The position numbers and the translations under genes are program-made. Of a stretch of 64,000 bases of DNA, positions 21,339 to 28,136 are shown in pieces. The DNA lies in NCBI GenBank assembly GCA_047638595.1, contig JBLIMJ010000002.1, positions 640 to 64,639 of the forward strand, written 5' to 3'. The stretch is from Acidimicrobiales bacterium. GTDB lineage: Bacteria; Patescibacteriota; Minisyncoccia; Phycocordibacterales; UBA918. Numbering within the stretch: the stretch's first letter is position 1; every line of letters begins with the position of its first letter. The notes under the pieces are model-generated. The model was given only the letters and a program-made list of their open reading frames with translations. It searched no databases and was not told the DNA's origin.

Positions 21339-21779
21339 ATGATTCGCTCAATTGTACTTTCTATCACTATCTTCCTTGGCCTGTCTGGCCAGACTTACGC
21401 ACAGAGCATATCTGAAGCAGACATGGAAACGTCTTTCAACACCGGAAAGATGGTCGACAGCCGTATCGTCGATCAAGAATTTACTCGCATTGGTGGCACG
21501 GTGCCGCTCATGCTGGTCATGTTCGAAGATCCGAACGTAGCAGAACTCGAAAAGCTTTGTCTCGATGTCTGCATTTTTGAATTCACTGCCGTTGAGGGCG
21601 ATATGATGCTATCAGGCATCAAGGCAAATCCCGACGACATGCTGGATCTTCACATCTACAAAGCGTACATGGCCCTGCGTCACGTCGAGGCTCATGACAC
21701 AGGTAGTTTTTTCCACCAAGTGAGGAAGATTGCGAGGGGAAACCCTAGCATCCTTGTCGTGCGAGAGCCAAACAGCTAA
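21339..21779 (+). CDS. hypothetical secreted protein (signal peptide)
   Basis: MIRSIVLSITIFLGLSGQTYAQ. Confidence 0.5.
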   Translation: MIRSIVLSITIFLGLSGQTYAQSISEADMETSFNTGKMVDSRIVDQEFTRIGGTVPLMLVMFEDPNVAELEKLCLDVCIFEFTAVEGDMMLSGIKANPDDMLDLHIYKAYMALRHVEAHDTGSFFHQVRKIARGNPSILVVREPNS

Positions 21780-21933
21780 ATAATTGACAGGGCGGCCAGC
21801 GGCCGTTCTGTCACAACACGCGCTGTGTTTTCTAAAAAGAAAACCTCTGCGTGTTTTCTTTTAGATATGACATCGCATACCTTGACTTTATATAAAAATA
21901 TGTTATTGTATTCTTCTCAAATAGAGAAACGTT

Positions 21934-22512
21934 ATGAAACACATCATCAATCCCTTCACTTATTTACGTGAGGCATACACAGCTGCCCTCCAATCCTTTG
22001 AGTCAGAAGTTTCTCGAAGTTTTGCAGTGACTGCAACAGTGCTTATCCCTGTTTTTGTCGTACTCTTATTCTCTTCAACACTCACTAGTGCCGCACTCTA
22101 TGTATTCCCTGCGAAAACCGTAGACATCCAAGCGATACAAATTGATGTAAATACAGTTGAAATTACCCTCCAAGGTAATCAAACACTTTTAAATGCTGCA
22201 GAAGTAGAGTTTTATTTTGACCCGACATACGTACATGTATATGACGTGAGGCTATCGGAAAGCCTTTGCGAAGAACAATTTATCATTACAAAAGAAGTCG
22301 ACAACATTACTGGTCGTATCTTCTACCAGTGTGGGACAGTGACTCCATTTGCGGGACAAGATACAACCATTGCAACACTGAAAGTTATTCCGCTAAAAGT
22401 TGGTACTTCACCACTTTCATTTGGAAGCAATACAAACGTACTTGCACATGACGGATATGGCTCAAACGTCACCAAAGATCGTCTTGCAAGCATCTTCCAG
22501 TTCTCTGACTAA
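21934..22512 (+). CDS. hypothetical membrane-anchored protein
   Basis: N-terminal TM helix; ORF. Confidence 0.5.
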   Translation: MKHIINPFTYLREAYTAALQSFESEVSRSFAVTATVLIPVFVVLLFSSTLTSAALYVFPAKTVDIQAIQIDVNTVEITLQGNQTLLNAAEVEFYFDPTYVHVYDVRLSESLCEEQFIITKEVDNITGRIFYQCGTVTPFAGQDTTIATLKVIPLKVGTSPLSFGSNTNVLAHDGYGSNVTKDRLASIFQFSD

Positions 22513-22686
22513 AGAAAGCATGCAAAAACTTAAACACGTAACGGATTGCTCCGTTACGTGTTTTTTGACATCAGAAGCTTTTATTACTAGTCACAGCAAT
22601 CATCCATTCTCTGAAGTAACCAAGGTAAGATATATAAATGAGGAGTTGATGCTCCAATAAGTTCATCAAACCTGGGAGGTTTTATA

Positions 22687-23073
22687 ATGCGACATATACT
22701 TACTGCCCTTTGCTTAATGACATTTTCGTTTAGCCAGGCACACGCTGGCTCTGTGGATGAAGAATACATTTGGCTGCCAAAGGAACATACTGTGTGCATG
22801 ACACTCACTGGTCTTGAAGACACAGTCACGGAAGTGAGTTTTGCTGATTGCGGTACCATACCGTACGAAATGCGATTTAGGGTTGCGAACAAAACTGATG
22901 GGAATAATGGATTCAAACTTCTGAGTCTGGAATATATTTTTGTCGCCATTACCGAAGATGGCACAAGTATCGCATCAACAGAGATTCAAGTTCTGTACAG
23001 CATGGATCCACAACCAACTGATGATACAAGCGTATCAAAAGTATTTGTTGGTACCAAAAATATAAATCCTTAA
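22687..23073 (+). CDS. hypothetical secreted protein
   Basis: signal peptide MRHILTALCLMTFSFSQAHA. Confidence 0.5.
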   Translation: MRHILTALCLMTFSFSQAHAGSVDEEYIWLPKEHTVCMTLTGLEDTVTEVSFADCGTIPYEMRFRVANKTDGNNGFKLLSLEYIFVAITEDGTSIASTEIQVLYSMDPQPTDDTSVSKVFVGTKNINP

Positions 23074-23077
23074 ACAC

Positions 23078-23150
23078 GGAAGTGACCAAAGTAAAAATGA
23101 ATTTTTACTTTGGTCACTTCCCCTCCGCGCTTAAGCGCGGTTTTTGTTTG
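23078..23150 (+). terminator. two consecutive hairpins (21-bp stem GGAAGTGACCAAAGTAAAAAT.., then CGCGCTTAAGCGCG plus T-run)
   Basis: read from sequence. Confidence 0.65.
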
Positions 23151-23206
23151 AAAGAAATATCCCTCTCCTCCCGTATAATGAAAGTAATACTTAGTAACAA
23201 TTCTTT

Positions 23207-25288
23207 ATGAAGCAGAGCTTATACGACATAGTAGTAATCGGCGCAGGCTCAGGAGGTCTTACTACCGCAGTTGGTTTTTCCAAAGTTGGAAAGAAAGTTC
23301 TTCTTGTGGAACGTGAACATATCGGTGGAGAGTGCACTAACTCAGGGTGTATTCCAAGTAAAGCGCTTCTGCATCATGCGAAGAGTTATCATGCTGCCAA
23401 ACAGATTTCAGGACAGAGTAAAGAAGGTGAAACCTACCGTACAGAAGCATTCAACTACGTGCGAGACAAAGTAAATAGTATCCTTGAAGAAGAAACGCCT
23501 GAAACATTTGAAAAACTGGGTATTGATGTAGTCATGGGGGAAGCCGTGTTTCATACAAAGTGTTCAATCAAGGTAAATGGCACAACCTACGGGTATAAAA
23601 AAGCTATCATCGCCACCGGCTCCTCCCCACAAATGATCAAAGTCGAAGGACTTAAGACATCGGATGTCTTAAGTAATCAAAATATCTTTGAGTTGGACGA
23701 TGTGCCGAAGAAACTCCTTATCATCGGTTCAGGACCAATCGGAATGGAGATGGGGCAAGCTTTTGCAATGCTCGGAAGTAAGGTGACTATTGCAAGTATC
23801 GATAGTCGTTTCGCACGACTTGAAGATGATTCTATTTCACCAATCATTCAAGCTGAGTTTGAAAAACTTGGTATAGATATTCATCTTAATGCATTTATTC
23901 AAAAGGTGGAAAGTGACGAGGCTGTTTTCGAGCTGAAAGAGAACGATGAAGTAACTGGTGAAGTTACAGTGCCATTCGATAAAGTACTTATCGCCATCGG
24001 CCGAGTGCCGAACCTCCCAGAAGGCTTGGAGATTGCTGGAATCAAGTCAGAGTCGTACGGTATAGTCGTCGACAAGCAACACCGTACCAGCAATAAACAT
24101 GTCTATGCGGTAGGTGACGTCGCGCAGAAACTGAAATTCACTCACACTGCTGACGACATTGGGAGACAGGTGGTCATGCATGTCCTTAGTAAAGGATGGG
24201 TACGTTTAAATACTAAAAAAGCAGTACCTAAAGTTACCTACACAAAACCCGAGATGGCCCAAGTCGGTCTTTCTCACACAGCAGCGTTAGAAAAATATTC
24301 TGCGCAAGAAATAATGCGTATCGAAGTACCGTACACAGCAAACCATCGCGCAAACACCGACAATGAGACTGATGGTCTAATGATTGTCATCGCACGGCGA
24401 TTGAATGGTGCCGTACTTGGAGCACATATCATCGGCGTATCTTCCGGAGAAATGATTTCTGTTTTTACACTCGCTATCGACCGCAAGATTTCCATGTGGC
24501 AACTACGGCGAATTATCTTCGCCTACCCTACCTACTGCCTTCTGATTAAAAAAGCAGGTGACTATTTCTTTGCACAACAAATTGCATCACTGAAAAATGA
24601 TTTATTATATCAATTCAAAAAACATGCACCAAAAATAATTGCACTCATCTTTTGGGGAACTATCCTCTATACATTCCAACAGTATCGAATCGATAACAAT
24701 CTTTCATATCAAGCCATACTATTGCAAGGGCTTCACTTCTTTACGAGCACCATGTACGGACCGTTGGTATACATGGGACTCTACGCCATTCGTCCAATCA
24801 TCCTCTTCCCTGCAACACTTCTCACCGCACTCTCTGGGGCACTGTTTGGTTTCTGGTGGGGTATCGCGTACACCATCTTGGGAGAAAATGCTTCCGCAAA
24901 CTTCGCATACTGGATTGGTCGTTTCTTCGGCAAAGACTTACGCCTTGAAGACTCACTCATTGGCAACTGGGTAGAAGCACTACGAAAAAATGGTTTTGGG
25001 ACAGTGCTCCTTATGCGTCTTTTTTATGTGCCATTTGATCTGACTAACTATGGTTCTGGTATTGTGAAAGTGAAATGGAGTAAATATGCATTAGCAACTG
25101 TCATCGGCATCATGCCAGGACTCACAACCTTTGTTGCACTTGGTGCTGCTGTCGATATAGAAGAGTTTCAAATGAATGGTCTCACCTTCGATGCCCTTGA
25201 CCCAAAATTCCTCGCTCTTTCAGCAACAATATTCATCGTTTCGTTGCTACTTTCAAAATTCTTAAAGTATTGGAGAGCAAAACTATAA
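23207..25288 (+). CDS. bifunctional protein: N-terminal class-I FAD-dependent pyridine nucleotide-disulfide oxidoreductase (about 450 aa, CTNSGC redox disulfide, dihydrolipoamide dehydrogenase/mercuric-reductase-like) fused to C-terminal DedA/TVP38-TMEM64 membrane domain
   Basis: GAGSGGLT, GGECTNSGCIPSK, NADH-binding GSGPIGME, dimerisation domain; C-terminal 6 TM with DedA-like signature. Confidence 0.8.
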   Translation: MKQSLYDIVVIGAGSGGLTTAVGFSKVGKKVLLVEREHIGGECTNSGCIPSKALLHHAKSYHAAKQISGQSKEGETYRTEAFNYVRDKVNSILEEETPETFEKLGIDVVMGEAVFHTKCSIKVNGTTYGYKKAIIATGSSPQMIKVEGLKTSDVLSNQNIFELDDVPKKLLIIGSGPIGMEMGQAFAMLGSKVTIASIDSRFARLEDDSISPIIQAEFEKLGIDIHLNAFIQKVESDEAVFELKENDEVTGEVTVPFDKVLIAIGRVPNLPEGLEIAGIKSESYGIVVDKQHRTSNKHVYAVGDVAQKLKFTHTADDIGRQVVMHVLSKGWVRLNTKKAVPKVTYTKPEMAQVGLSHTAALEKYSAQEIMRIEVPYTANHRANTDNETDGLMIVIARRLNGAVLGAHIIGVSSGEMISVFTLAIDRKISMWQLRRIIFAYPTYCLLIKKAGDYFFAQQIASLKNDLLYQFKKHAPKIIALIFWGTILYTFQQYRIDNNLSYQAILLQGLHFFTSTMYGPLVYMGLYAIRPIILFPATLLTALSGALFGFWWGIAYTILGENASANFAYWIGRFFGKDLRLEDSLIGNWVEALRKNGFGTVLLMRLFYVPFDLTNYGSGIVKVKWSKYALATVIGIMPGLTTFVALGAAVDIEEFQMNGLTFDALDPKFLALSATIFIVSLLLSKFLKYWRAKL

Positions 25289-25352
25289 ACACAACATATA
25301 CCATAAAGGACGGAGAACACATCTCCGTCCTTTATTTTCAGAAACTGCTCAA

Positions 25353-27716: not shown

Positions 27717-28136
27717 CTATAGCTTACATTCTCCTCGTGTATATGAAACGACACTACCTTGCGCACATGCACTACATGCATTGCCAAAAGTTTTTGGTAT
27801 CGGGTCACAGGGGGTGTTAACACATTGAACCTCCAGAAAACCACACACAGGTGCATACTCCATAGTGCACATCTCTGCACGTTTTTGTTTATCCGTGCAA
27901 ACAACCCCAAAAGTATCTGTCTTTACAGGAGGAATCTTATCATCGGTAACAATATCAATATCCTCAACGAGTGTTGAGGTTGAGTTGGGTGCTGATGCCG
28001 GGGTTGAAGTTGAAATTGGTTCCAGTATGGAATCTGGGGATGGCATCGAGGCTGGAGATGGTGCGAAAAAGATGACTGCCAATAGTGTCAGAAAAATACC
28101 TAACACAACAATTTTCTGTAGATTTTCCATATGCAC
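27717..28136 (-). CDS. secreted/anchored small protein with C-terminal Kazal-type serine protease inhibitor-like domain
   Basis: N-terminal TM; CTMEYAPVCG..C.NTPC....TFGNACSACAQGSVVSYTRGEC cysteine spacing. Confidence 0.55.
   Translation of the reverse strand: MHMENLQKIVVLGIFLTLLAVIFFAPSPASMPSPDSILEPISTSTPASAPNSTSTLVEDIDIVTDDKIPPVKTDTFGVVCTDKQKRAEMCTMEYAPVCGFLEVQCVNTPCDPIPKTFGNACSACAQGSVVSYTRGECKL

What the first reader, a model, noticed from the sequence alone, without database searches (positions are those of the whole stretch)
23207..25288. FAD-dependent disulfide oxidoreductase fused to a DedA/TVP38 membrane domain
A single 693-aa ORF combines a complete class-I pyridine nucleotide-disulfide oxidoreductase with a C-terminal six-helix DedA/TVP38-TMEM64 domain. 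The oxidoreductase has FAD and NAD(P)H Rossmann motifs, a CTNSGC redox-active disulfide and a dimerisation domain.

DedA proteins are implicated in lipid flipping and membrane homeostasis. Tethering a cytoplasmic disulfide reductase to one suggests membrane-localised redox chemistry, for example reduction of a lipid-linked or periplasm-facing substrate.

I believe a bifunctional TVP38/TMEM64-FAD-oxidoreductase annotation exists in databases, but its function is uncharacterised.
Basis: partly seen in the sequence, partly recalled or inferred. Interest (0 to 1): 0.5.

Follow-up and report, generated by a model that had tools for sequence, protein, structure and literature searches.

The report
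Membrane-tethered flavoprotein reductase fused to DedA domain
One real 693-residue gene in a Patescibacteria genome joins a cytoplasmic flavin disulfide reductase to a DedA/VTT lipid-transporter-like membrane domain; the fusion type is already recorded in the literature and widespread, but nobody knows what it does.

Summary
ORF 23207-25288 (+) encodes Pyr_redox_2, Pyr_redox_dim and VTT_dom, all above Pfam cut-offs.

It is not an assembly artefact. At least 120 protein clusters and about 36 of 42 Patescibacteria loci carry the same uninterrupted fusion.

The fusion class is already published: Todor et al. 2023 name PF07992/PF02852 as the commonest fusion partners of COG0398 DedA proteins. Function is unknown.

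New details found here:
- The reductase is neither E3 nor MerA. It fails every curated NCBIfam cut-off and belongs to a clade with GG[D/E]C[T/L]NxGC[V/I]PSK and Tyr in place of the catalytic His ([P/A]YPT), without MerA's C-terminal Cys pair.
- The membrane half is COG0398-type (YdjX/YdjZ-like), not a UndP flippase. It has four predicted TM helices plus two re-entrant hairpins, N-in/C-in, so the reductase is cytoplasmic.
- The same two modules occur fused in the opposite order and as adjacent genes in several phyla. Neighbours there are often a PIP-synthase-like CDP-alcohol phosphatidyltransferase, a histidine kinase or MsrA/MsrB/AhpD-like genes. None of these is linked in Patescibacteria.

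Best model: an NAD(P)H-driven dithiol reductase held at the cytoplasmic face of a lipid-transporter-like domain, acting on a membrane-associated substrate. The substrate is unknown.

Verdict: a new member of a known, uncharacterised kind; moderate interest.

The parts
23207..25288 (+). Complete 693-aa ORF (incl. stop): FDR-VTT fusion protein; identical to NCBI MFT7506968.1
23222..24157 (+). Pyr_redox_2 (FAD + NAD(P)H binding domains), residues 6-317
   Evidence: E 1e-61; model pLDDT mostly >90; TMt 0.86-0.91 to LipDH/MerA structures
23240..23257 (+). FAD-binding GxGxxG (GAGSGG, residues 12-17)
   Evidence: sequence; G12/G14/G17 invariant
23324..23362 (+). Redox-active disulfide motif GGECTNSGCIPSK (residues 40-52; C43, C48; acidic E42 before Cys1)
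   Evidence: (C43, C48 in 43/44; residue 42 = D 24/E 19)
23726..23743 (+). NAD(P)H-binding GxGxxG (GSGPIG, residues 174-179)
   Evidence: sequence; G174/G176/G179 invariant
24224..24535 (+). Pyr_redox_dim interface/dimerisation domain, residues 340-443
   Evidence: E 3e-23
24524..24532 (+). Y440-P441-T442: Tyr at the position of the catalytic His of LipDH/GR; aligns with Tyr of MerA 'PYLT'
   Evidence: alignments; invariant; Y 43/44, P 43/44, T 40/44
24539..24622 (+). Basic linker helix, residues 445-472 (K/R-rich through residue 476), predicted cytoplasmic, joining the active-site C-terminal segment to TM1
   Evidence: KR 6 / DE 2 over residues 445-476; corresponds to the basic ~33-aa tail of unfused clade members
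24626..24694 (+). TM1 (residues 474-496), in to out
24758..24847 (+). Re-entrant hairpin 1 (residues 518-547; Y526, R529, FPATLLT, G544, G548), no acidic residue
24851..24928 (+). TM2 (residues 549-574), out to in
24992..25063 (+). Re-entrant hairpin 2 (residues 596-619; invariant R604, P609, D611, G618)
   Evidence: (R604 44/44)
25076..25147 (+). TM3 (residues 624-647), in to out
25202..25282 (+). TM4 and basic C-terminal tail (residues 666-692), out to in
23125..23140 (+). Terminator-like GC hairpin + T-run ending the upstream unit
23174..23179 (+). TATAAT -10-like hexamer 28 nt before the ATG (possible own promoter)
   Evidence: sequence; not scored as a full promoter
25303..25335 (-). 14-bp-stem hairpin 15 nt after the stop codon, between the convergent genes. 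The scan scored it on the - strand; the stem is palindromic, so it probably also ends the + strand gene (inference)

Best explanation
The protein is a homodimeric, inner-membrane-anchored NAD(P)H-dependent dithiol reductase.

Proposed electron path and geometry:
- Electrons run NAD(P)H to FAD to the C43/C48 dithiol in the cytoplasmic N-terminal half.
- The active-site C-terminal segment is Y440-P-T, supplied by the partner subunit as in all class-I FDRs.
- That segment runs straight into a basic linker helix and TM1. This holds the catalytic pocket at the cytoplasmic membrane face of a COG0398-type DedA/VTT domain.
- The VTT domain has four TM helices and two facing re-entrant hairpins, like the TMEM41B/VMP1 and YdjX/YdjZ group.

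The two halves work on the same membrane-associated molecule. The VTT domain binds or translocates a lipid or amphipathic compound. The reductase reduces a thiol-reactive group on it or on something delivered through it: a disulfide, an oxidised sulfur/selenium centre, or a soft metal(loid).

Tyr replaces the acid/base His and an acidic residue precedes Cys1. This argues against classical lipoamide or glutathione disulfide exchange.

Shown: domain identities, conserved residues, topology prediction, recurrent fusion and adjacency. Inferred: dimer geometry, coupling of the two activities, nature of the substrate.
For: Domains and fold:
- Domains and motifs.
- Confident full-length model: pLDDT 91.4, pTM 0.81.
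- The FDR half superposes on LipDH and MerA at TMt 0.86-0.91.

Topology:
- N-in/C-in by the positive-inside rule. Predicted cytoplasmic segments have K+R of 6, 4 and 3; outside loops have 0 and 0. Family means agree.
- This matches the experimentally verified TMEM41B topology.

VTT subfamily and conservation:
- A profile of the fusions' VTT domains scores YdjX 88 and YdjZ 73.5 bits, against YghB 21.8 bits.
- UptA model: 21 bits against a cut-off of 250.
- R604 is present in 44/44, D611 and P609 in 43/44, R529 in 41/44. The membrane half is under functional selection and is not a mere anchor.

Rosetta-stone evidence for coupling:
- The same clade of FDR (GG[DE]C[TL]NxGC[VI]PSK plus [PA]YPT) is fused to VTT in both orders.
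- It is also encoded next to a TVP38 gene in Metabacillus, Sinorhizobium, Pseudanabaena, an Oscillospiraceae MAG and P0191.

Lipid link:
- A PIP-synthase-like CDP-alcohol phosphatidyltransferase lies 2-5 bp downstream or inside the operon in 4 of 14 non-Paceibacteria contexts, spanning Bacillota (Bacilli, Clostridia), Pseudomonadota (Gammaproteobacteria) and Chlamydiota.
- DedA fusions to lipid enzymes are taken in the literature as marking the flipped lipid (PMC10193950).

Redox-stress link:
- MsrA/MsrB/CMD beside the pair in Tatlockia and Metabacillus.
- Thioredoxin plus CcdA-like-DUF3179 directly upstream in 8 Paceibacteria loci.
Against: - No biochemical datum exists for any member.
- In the window the gene is monocistronic with no informative neighbour.
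- The CDP-alcohol transferase is absent from all 42 Patescibacteria loci and from the 64-kb window. The lipid-synthesis link may therefore not apply in this lineage, which is generally thought to lack de novo lipid synthesis (own knowledge).
- Neighbourhood partners are heterogeneous: transferase in 4 of 14 contexts, histidine kinase in 5, none in about 5.
- No known lipid is an obvious substrate for a dithiol reductase.
- I could not inspect model coordinates or PAE, so the claim that the active site faces the VTT cavity is inference from chain connectivity only.
- Amphipathicity of the linker or tail is not statistically established; the one tail z-score printed for the query is 1.34 and sampled members were mostly below 2.
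Confidence: 0.45

Rival explanations
1. Metal(loid) or chalcogen detoxification or assimilation module. The FDR is a MerA-like reductase for a soft electrophile such as Hg(II), As(V)/methyl-As(V), selenite, tellurite or U(VI). The VTT domain is the channel or carrier that brings the ion or organometalloid to or from it.
For: - Tyr at the His position, exactly as in MerA.
- In Pseudanabaena the pair sits in an arsenosugar cluster: TVP38, 'mercuric reductase', arsM, TVP38, arsS, with ArsR nearby.
- ArsR-family regulators stand upstream in 3 Paceibacteria loci.
- A cyanobacterial MerA-like enzyme, Slr1849, reduces Hg(II) and U(VI) with NADPH (PMC4307280). Whether it belongs to this clade was not verified.
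- A DedA protein was linked to selenite uptake in Cupriavidus (own knowledge, not checked).
Against: - No C-terminal Cys pair and no NmerA/HMA domain.
- No conserved Cys in the VTT half to relay a thiophilic metal.
- TIGR02053 MerA scores 316.6 against a cut-off of 454.
- No mer, ars or ter genes next to the gene in the window or in most loci.
- The CDP-alcohol transferase, Msr and histidine-kinase partners are not metal-specific.
Confidence: 0.2
2. The VTT half is only a membrane anchor and dimerisation device. The FDR is a general membrane-proximal NAD(P)H oxidoreductase, for example a thiol/disulfide, quinone or HOSCN/RclA-like oxidant reductase. It would protect the membrane surface or feed reducing power to extracytoplasmic thiol pathways (CcdA/DsbD-Trx-Msr).
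For: - Unfused clade members carry a ~33-aa basic tail (median net charge +5) that could bind membranes by itself.
- Thioredoxin plus CcdA-like genes lie directly upstream in 8 Paceibacteria loci.
- MsrA/MsrB/AhpD-like genes are nearby in two phyla.
- NAD(P)H-producing enzymes are adjacent: GDH in 7-8 loci and next to P0131, G6PD/6PGD in L035/L036, NAD kinase after P0177.
Against: - VTT signature residues are nearly invariant across 27-73% identity.
- Even unfused FDRs keep a separate VTT gene next door. A simple anchor would not need this.
- RclA and Har models score far below their cut-offs: 207 against 740, and 221 against 650.
Confidence: 0.17
3. Redox-regulated lipid scramblase. The FDR half acts as an NAD(P)H or thiol-redox sensor that gates lipid movement through the VTT domain. 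It does not turn over a substrate.
For: - COG0398 proteins are the closest bacterial relatives of the TMEM41B/VMP1 scramblases (PMC10127716).
- Histidine kinases frequently follow the pair, which suggests a signalling context.
Against: The full catalytic apparatus is conserved: both dinucleotide folds and both Cys at about 98%. Sensors derived from enzymes usually lose such residues. There is no precedent in the FDR family (own knowledge).
Confidence: 0.1
4. It is simply the E3 dihydrolipoyl dehydrogenase of a 2-oxoacid dehydrogenase or glycine-cleavage system that happens to be membrane-anchored, as the JGI and NCBI names say.
For: - Source names.
- The best PDB sequence hit is LipDH 1ebd, E 4e-60.
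- TIGR01350 gives 355 bits.
Against: - Below the TIGR01350 cut-off of 408.8.
- The catalytic His-Glu dyad is replaced by Tyr...Leu in 43 of 44 family members.
- MerA scores almost equally well.
- No E1, E2 or GcvH gene was recognised beside it in the recurring neighbour families of the 45 loci.
- Patescibacteria generally lack these complexes (own knowledge).
Confidence: 0.03
5. Artefact: two adjacent genes joined by a frameshift, assembly or gene-calling error.
For: A few loci do show the ORF broken (L018, L034, L038) or only the VTT part (L039).
Against: - An uninterrupted ORF in about 36 of 42 independent MAG loci, and at least 120 clusters from NCBI, JGI, ENA, Logan and Tara.
- Conserved junction residues.
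- A continuous, confident helix across the junction.
Confidence: 0.01

Closest known systems
COG0398 DedA proteins fused to PF07992/PF02852 (noted by Todor, Herrera & Gross 2023, mBio, PMC10127716)
   Same: Exactly this domain combination. The VTT half is COG0398-type by profile score and by the diagnostic residues.
   Different: The paper only records that the fusion exists and speculates on a link to aerobic metabolism. It did not cover Patescibacteria, the domain order, the His-to-Tyr clade signature or the partner genes. In the sampled representatives, opposite-order (VTT then FDR) proteins also exist.
Mercuric reductase MerA (TIGR02053; PDB 5x1y, 1zk7, 4ywo)
   Same: Class-I FDR fold (TMt 0.90-0.91), CxxxxC, and Tyr at the position of the LipDH/GR catalytic His.
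   Different: No C-terminal Cys pair, no NmerA/HMA domain, no mer operon, 316.6 bits against a cut-off of 454. An acidic residue stands before Cys1 where MerA has Thr.
Dihydrolipoyl dehydrogenase E3 (TIGR01350; PDB 1ebd, 6uzi)
   Same: Best overall sequence and fold match, about 30% identity, same three-domain FDR architecture.
   Different: The His-Glu dyad is absent, the score is below the curated cut-off, the protein is membrane-anchored, and no E2 or H-protein context was found.
TMEM41B / VMP1 / TVP38 and E. coli YdjX, YdjZ (VTT/DedA domain, COG0398 branch)
   Same: Same predicted architecture: 4 TMH plus 2 facing re-entrant loops, N and C termini cytosolic. No acidic residues in re-entrant loop 1, and only one Arg in loop 2.
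   Different: Those proteins are stand-alone. The eukaryotic ones scramble phospholipids in vitro, while YdjX/YdjZ have no assigned function. Here the domain carries a 445-residue flavoenzyme on its cytoplasmic N-terminus.
DedA fusions to lipid-metabolising enzymes (PAP2, MprF synthase domain, CDP-OH phosphatidyltransferase, phospholipase D; Roney & Rudner 2023, PMC10193950) and MprF itself
   Same: The same design logic: a cytoplasmic-face enzyme covalently joined to a lipid-translocating domain. A CDP-OH transferase is the commonest operon partner of the FDR-VTT pair outside Patescibacteria.
   Different: In those cases the enzyme's lipid substrate is obvious. A flavoprotein dithiol reductase has no known lipid substrate.
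E. coli ydjX-ydjY-ydjZ-ynjA-ynjBCD-ynjE locus
   Same: COG0398 DedA genes with redox proteins (4Fe-4S YdjY, AhpD-like YnjA). Its ABC transporter's binding protein is 34-39% identical to the one in the Firmicutes FDR-VTT clusters.
   Different: No FDR and no CDP-OH transferase. Function is also unknown.

Membership tests
Class-I pyridine nucleotide-disulfide oxidoreductase (FDR) superfamily | Pyr_redox_2 + Pyr_redox_dim domains above Pfam gathering scores | tested here: met
   209.3 bits against 26.1, and 82.6 bits against 25.3
Class-I pyridine nucleotide-disulfide oxidoreductase (FDR) superfamily | Two GxGxxG dinucleotide folds and a CxxxxC redox-active disulfide in the FAD domain | tested here: met
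   GAGSGG 12-17, GSGPIG 174-179, C43-TNSG-C48; conserved
Class-I pyridine nucleotide-disulfide oxidoreductase (FDR) superfamily | C-terminal His-Glu acid/base dyad (HPT..E) of group-1 enzymes (LipDH, GR, TryR) | tested here: not met
   Y440-P-T-Y-C-L445. Tyr in 43/44 family members; no Glu at +5
Dihydrolipoyl dehydrogenase (E3) | Score at or above the TIGR01350 equivalog cut-off | tested here: not met
   355.4 against 408.8
Dihydrolipoyl dehydrogenase (E3) | Genomic association with E1/E2 or glycine-cleavage H protein | tested here: inconclusive
   None among the recurring neighbour families of the 45 loci, nor among the 20 window ORFs scanned. Whole genomes were not available.
Mercuric reductase MerA | Score at or above the TIGR02053 equivalog cut-off | tested here: not met
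   316.6 against 454.45
Mercuric reductase MerA | C-terminal vicinal Cys pair that hands Hg(II) to the active site | tested here: not met
   After YPT the chain continues into the linker and TM1. C444 is not conserved (Ser/Ala in most). There are only 4 Cys in the protein.
Mercuric reductase MerA | Tyr in place of the catalytic His | tested here: met
   Y440 aligns with the Tyr of 5x1y 'PYLT'
Mercuric reductase MerA | mer operon context (MerR/MerT/MerP) or an NmerA domain | tested here: not met
   No HMA hit. Neighbours are hypotheticals, EF-G and ClpP-like.
RclA / Har (HOSCN, reactive-chlorine reductases) | Score at or above the NF040477 / NF041853 cut-offs | tested here: not met
   207 against 740, and 221 against 650
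DedA superfamily (VTT domain, PF09335) | Pfam gathering score | tested here: met
   79.6 against 33.9
DedA superfamily (VTT domain, PF09335) | Two re-entrant loops, each followed by a TMH, plus flanking TMHs; N and C termini cytoplasmic | tested here: met
   Prediction only. Helices from the pLDDT-91 model, K/R distribution, agreement with SCAM-verified TMEM41B topology.
COG0398 DedA subfamily (YdjX/YdjZ/TVP38-like) | Closer to COG0398 than to COG0586 reference proteins | tested here: met
   Family profile: YdjX 88.1 and YdjZ 73.5 bits, against YghB 21.8 bits. COG1238 (YqaA) was not compared.
COG0398 DedA subfamily (YdjX/YdjZ/TVP38-like) | [quoted passage not shown] | tested here: met
   RL1 has 0 D/E in the query and a family mean of 0.0. 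YghB D51 aligns to T537, and E39 has no acidic counterpart. R130 = R604 is kept. R136 aligns to F/Y610.
COG0586 UndP flippases (UptA, YghB, YqjA) | UptA equivalog score; E39/D51 and R130/R136 quartet | tested here: not met
   NF052604 gives 21.4 against 250. Only the R130 equivalent is present.
FDR + VTT + CDP-alcohol phosphatidyltransferase triad (defined here) | A ~200-aa PIP-synthase-like CDP-OH_P_transf gene adjacent to the pair or fusion | tested here: not met
   The motif DG..AR..G...D...D is absent from the 64-kb window and from all 42 Patescibacteria loci. It is present in L043, L050, L055/56 and L058/59.

The most novel reading that the evidence does not exclude
The YPT-clade reductase and its COG0398 DedA partner form the core of an undescribed membrane redox-lipid system. 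Outside Patescibacteria, a PIP-synthase-like CDP-alcohol phosphatidyltransferase and a YnjBCD-type importer would also belong to it. The system would make, repair or translocate a thiol-reactive or redox-active lipid head group or amphipathic metabolite. In lipid-scavenging Patescibacteria, the fused form would condition host-derived lipids or protect the membrane. If so, this would be the first assigned substrate class for bacterial COG0398 DedA proteins and the first lipid-directed flavoprotein disulfide reductase.
Probability: 0.2. Interest if true: 0.75.

Novelty: new member of a known kind. Interest (0 to 1): 0.38.

Why it matters
DedA/VTT proteins are found across life (TMEM41B and VMP1 in humans). 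Only the COG0586 branch has a firm bacterial function, UndP recycling. The COG0398 branch, the closest bacterial kin of the eukaryotic scramblases, has none.

A covalent fusion to an enzyme is one of the few handles on what such a transporter carries. This work shows three things:
- The fused enzyme is a distinct reductase clade that is neither E3 nor MerA.
- It is paired with VTT genes in both fusion orders and as operons in several phyla.
- It often travels with a head-group transferase and oxidative-stress genes.

That turns a vague annotation into testable experiments in tractable organisms (S. meliloti SMc01718/merA1, Metabacillus, Legionellaceae).

For Patescibacteria, the result also corrects a systematic mis-annotation as 'pyruvate/2-oxoglutarate dehydrogenase E3'. 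That label could distort metabolic reconstructions of these reduced genomes.

Tried and rejected
- The first AlphaFold run used 18 close homologues and gave an unusable VTT half (pLDDT 40-60). It was replaced by the 44-sequence run.
- The afdb50 fold library was unavailable. The PDB Foldseek search returned only FDR structures, so nothing was learnt about the VTT fold from solved structures.
- Literature searches found nothing for 'bifunctional TVP38', for Patescibacteria with dihydrolipoamide dehydrogenase (irrelevant hits), or for arsenosugar with TVP38. They found no function for ydjXYZ-ynjABCD.
- Marteyn 2013 on Slr1849 is not held and PMC6741143 gives no sequence features. I could not verify that the characterised cyanobacterial MerA-like enzyme belongs to this clade.
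- I tested whether the post-YPT tail or linker is a significantly amphipathic helix. It is basic (net +4 to +5), but the hydrophobic moment is only modestly above shuffles, so this stays a suggestion.
- I looked in the window for the thioredoxin/CcdA-DUF3179, GDH, G6PD and ArsR neighbours seen in related loci. There were no hits.
- I looked for the CDP-alcohol transferase in the Patescibacteria loci and the window. It is absent.
- I first logged L043 as a same-order fusion outside CPR. On inspection it is three separate, overlapping genes. L044 was not resolved.
- NADH versus NADPH preference could not be decided from the beta2-loop residues (ASIDSRFAR).
- I had no access to model coordinates or PAE, so the inter-domain geometry is untested.


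Full report
**1. Observation**

The window holds an ATG-initiated ORF of 693 codons at exactly 23207..25288 on the + strand. Pfam places three domains, each far above its gathering score:
- Pyr_redox_2 on residues 6-317 (E 1e-61).
- Pyr_redox_dim on residues 340-443 (E 3e-23).
- VTT_dom, the current name of SNARE_assoc/DedA, on residues 534-647 (E 3.6e-22).

The protein is identical to NCBI MFT7506968.1, a MAG protein named as a pyruvate/2-oxoglutarate dehydrogenase E3 component.

**2. Is the fusion real?**

Yes.
- A word-indexed search of 5.8 billion proteins returned at least 120 clusters with 63-100% identity, lengths of 685-749 aa and all three Pfam domains. They come from NCBI, JGI, ENA, Logan and Tara.
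- A pattern scan of one genome per GTDB species found it in 42 Patescibacteria MAG loci, variously labelled Paceibacteria, Nomurabacteria, Kaiserbacteria and Parcubacteria. About 36 carry an uninterrupted ORF. Three are broken (L018, L034, L038), one holds only the VTT part (L039), and the rest are cut by contig ends.
- Residues across the junction are conserved, and the junction is a continuous helix in a confident model.

The rest of the window is a typical Patescibacteria core region: SecY, EF-Tu, EF-G, ComEC, RecJ, type-IV pilus genes, NusA, trigger factor and RNase Y.

Compared with the EF-G gene next door in the same 28 loci, the fusion is conserved at an ordinary enzyme level: mean identity 62% against 82%.

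**3. The reductase half**

- It matches LipDH and MerA about equally well by sequence (1ebd 4e-60, 5x1y 1e-59) and by fold (TMt 0.86-0.91).
- It fails every curated NCBIfam cut-off: LipDH 355 against 409, MerA 317 against 454, GR 250 against 480, Har 221 against 650, RclA 207 against 740, STH 217 against 465. The best model is the uninformative 'FAD-containing oxidoreductase' NF004991, at 383 against 620.
- In the HMMER alignments the catalytic His of LipDH (HPT..E) is Tyr440, which aligns with the Tyr of MerA's PYLT. The Glu position is Leu445.
- In 44 same-order fusions of 27-73% identity, Y440 occurs in 43, P441 in 43, T442 in 40, and C43 and C48 in 43 each. The residue before Cys1 is always acidic but for one (D 24, E 19), where LipDH, GR and MerA have Thr.
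- C444 and C119 are not conserved. There is no C-terminal Cys pair and no HMA domain.
- The same signature, GG[DE]C[TL]NxGC[VI]PSK plus [PA]YPT, marks the opposite-order fusions and the nearest unfused 460-520-aa proteins. The unfused ones end in a ~33-aa basic tail with median net charge +5.

So this is a distinct FDR clade, neither E3 nor MerA.

**4. The membrane half**

With a 44-sequence alignment AlphaFold2 gives mean pLDDT 91.4 and pTM 0.81. The predicted elements are:

| Element | Residues |
|---|---|
| Linker helix | 445-472 |
| TM1 | 474-496 |
| Re-entrant hairpin 1 | 518-547 |
| TM2 | 549-574 |
| Re-entrant hairpin 2 | 596-619 |
| TM3 | 624-647 |
| TM4 | 666-692 |

K+R counts are 6, 4 and 3 in the segments predicted cytoplasmic and 0 and 0 in those predicted outside. 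Family means agree. This is the N-in/C-in, 4-TMH plus 2-re-entrant-loop topology verified experimentally for TMEM41B. The reductase, which has no signal peptide, is therefore cytoplasmic.

A profile of the fusions' VTT domains scores E. coli YdjX at 88 bits and YdjZ at 73.5 (both COG0398), but YghB (COG0586) at only 21.8. The UptA equivalog model gives 21 bits against a cut-off of 250.

The diagnostic residues of Todor et al. fit COG0398. There is no acidic residue in re-entrant loop 1. The YghB R130 equivalent is kept (R604, 44/44). The R136 equivalent is aromatic and is followed by D611, present in 43/44.

**5. What is already known**

Todor, Herrera & Gross (mBio 2023, PMC10127716) state that the most common domain fusions of COG0398 DedAs are with PF07992 and PF02852. 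They relate this loosely to aerobic metabolism. Roney & Rudner (PNAS 2023, PMC10193950) use DedA-enzyme fusions as evidence that DedA domains flip the lipid made or modified by the fused enzyme, but they do not mention the reductase fusion. No paper in the library assigns a function to the fusion.

**6. Evidence that the two halves work together**

- An exhaustive HMMER search of 1.84 billion representatives shows many colinear FDR-then-VTT proteins, down to about 28% identity. It also shows a second architecture with VTT first and FDR second, e.g. P0167, P0177, P0229 and P0258.
- Carriers include other Parcubacteria, a Simkaniaceae (Chlamydiota) MAG and Tatlockia (Legionellaceae).
- Separate but adjacent TVP38 and FDR genes occur in Metabacillus, Bacillus sp., Sinorhizobium (SMc01718-merA1), Pseudanabaena, an Oscillospiraceae MAG and next to the randomly chosen unfused member P0191. 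All of these FDRs carry the clade signature except the Oscillospiraceae one, which has YPI in place of YPT.

**7. Context clues to function**

In the window the gene is monocistronic. A terminator-like hairpin (23125-23140) and a TATAAT (23174-23179) lie upstream. A 14-bp-stem hairpin lies at 25303-25335. The neighbours are uninformative.

In related Patescibacteria loci:
- EF-G (34 of 45 loci) and an ABC-F protein (23 of 45) reflect synteny.
- Eight loci have a same-strand block directly upstream: membrane-anchored thioredoxin (WCPSC), then a CcdA-like TM domain fused to DUF3179. Three of these also have an ArsR regulator.
- Glutamate dehydrogenase or G6PD/6PGD is adjacent in about 10 loci.

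In 14 contexts outside this family:
- A ~200-aa CDP-alcohol phosphatidyltransferase is in the operon or 2-5 bp downstream in four (Oscillospiraceae, Metabacillus, Tatlockia, Simkaniaceae). It is closest to inositol-phosphate-type synthases but below their cut-offs (75-103 bits against 170-180).
- A sensor histidine kinase is adjacent in five.
- MsrA, MsrB and an AhpD-like CMD protein are adjacent in two.
- The Firmicutes clusters include an ABC transporter whose binding protein is 34-39% identical to E. coli YnjB. YnjB is encoded with the COG0398 genes ydjX/ydjZ, a ferredoxin-like protein and an AhpD-like protein.
- In Pseudanabaena the pair lies within an arsenosugar (arsM/arsS) cluster.

The transferase motif is absent from all Patescibacteria loci and from the window.

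**8. Mechanism**

I commit to the following model, at about 0.45 confidence. The protein is a homodimer. Both the FDR fold, and the DedA domain according to the literature, dimerise. NAD(P)H reduces FAD and then the C43/C48 disulfide in the cytoplasm.

Because the YPT segment that completes the partner subunit's active site is only about 5 residues from the linker helix and about 30 from TM1, the catalytic pocket is held at the membrane surface. There it sits next to the cytoplasm-facing re-entrant loop 2 (R604/D611) of the VTT domain. The substrate is a membrane-associated, thiol-reactive species handled by the VTT domain.

The domain identities, conserved residues, topology prediction and repeated genetic coupling are shown. 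The dimer geometry, the coupling of activities and the substrate are inferred.

Rivals, detailed in their own section:
- A MerA-like metal(loid) or chalcogen reductase with VTT as conduit (0.2).
- A generic membrane-proximal reductase with VTT as anchor (0.17).
- A redox-gated scramblase (0.1).
- A plain E3 (0.03).
- An artefact (0.01).

**9. Verdict**

The gene is a new, Patescibacteria-lineage member of a known but uncharacterised fusion class. Its current public annotation as an E3 component is very probably wrong.

Interest is moderate. The finding does not overturn anything. The clade signature, the two fusion orders and the recurrent transferase, kinase and Msr partners give concrete experimental entry points into the unknown function of COG0398 DedA proteins.

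Noticed in passing
L006, L008, L009, L012, L019, L020, L035, L040 (e.g. L006:3066-5848, L019:2374-2955): Directly upstream of the fusion, on the same strand, lie a membrane-anchored thioredoxin (WCPSC, PF00085) and a ~555-aa protein. That protein has a CcdA/DsbD_2-like N-terminal TM domain (APCILPLLP; below the Pfam cut-off) fused to DUF3179 (E 2e-72). An ArsR regulator and a small DUF6442-like membrane protein are sometimes present. This looks like an extracytoplasmic thiol-reducing pathway of unknown purpose. It is not present in the window.
   Followed up: partly
L052:5848-11365 (Pseudanabaena galeata plasmid pPg_02): The arsenosugar cluster reads TVP38, YPT-clade 'mercuric reductase', arsM, a second TVP38, then arsS, with HK/RR and ArsR upstream. 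This suggests a role for the FDR/VTT pair in organoarsenical or arsenolipid metabolism in cyanobacteria. No paper in the library mentions it.
   Followed up: partly
L053:7402-14001 (E. coli K-12 ydjX-ydjY-ydjZ-ynjA-ynjBCD-ynjE): The E. coli COG0398 DedA genes sit with a 4Fe-4S protein, an AhpD-like protein, an ABC transporter and a rhodanese. YnjB is 34-39% identical to the binding proteins in the Firmicutes FDR-VTT-CDP-OH clusters, so these may be variants of one unknown system.
   Followed up: partly
L001, L002, L003, L007, L014, L028, L040, L062 (GDH); L035/L036 (G6PD, 6PGD, 6PGL); L057:9073-9816 (NAD kinase): NAD(P)H- or NADP-generating enzymes are repeatedly the immediate neighbours of the fusion in unrelated contigs. 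This is a weak hint that NADPH is the electron donor.
   Followed up: no
L006 (462-aa ORF on the minus strand upstream of the fusion); L039:6001-6714; L034, L018, L038: One Patescibacteria locus carries an additional unfused FDR paralogue. One locus has only a 275-aa VTT-plus-linker ORF next to EF-G. Three loci show the fusion ORF broken into pieces, which could be real splits or MAG frameshifts.
   Followed up: no
window 27717-28136 (-): A small secreted protein has a Cys-rich C-terminus (CTDKQKRAEMCTMEYAPVCG...CDPIPKTFGNACSACAQG...GECKL) that looks Kazal-like to me (own knowledge; no Pfam hit at E 1e-3). The same C-terminal module ends the 400-510-aa membrane proteins of family 33 in L001, L002, L013, L016 and L018.
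   Followed up: no
window 23083-23119: A long perfect hairpin (GTGACCAAAGTAAAAATGAATTTTTACTTTGGTCAC) lies immediately after the upstream ORF and before the GC-rich terminator-like hairpin at 23125-23140. These are two stacked stem-loops in a 133-nt spacer.
   Followed up: no
window 21339-23073 (+): Three small ORFs (146, 192 and 128 aa) with N-terminal hydrophobic segments and no Pfam match precede the gene. The 192-aa one (family 58) recurs upstream of the fusion in only two other loci (L005, L011).
   Followed up: partly
whole window: ARAGORN found no tRNA or tmRNA gene in 64 kb. GC skew is negative over most of the window and turns positive from about 54 kb.
   Followed up: no
L001 and L010 record titles: Two loci with 67-74% identical fusions and Patescibacteria-type neighbours are deposited as 'Patiriisocius sp.' and 'Candidatus Azotimanducaceae'. 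Many others are labelled 'uncultured Candidatus Saccharibacteria'. These are probably taxonomic mislabels of Paceibacteria-like MAGs.
   Followed up: no
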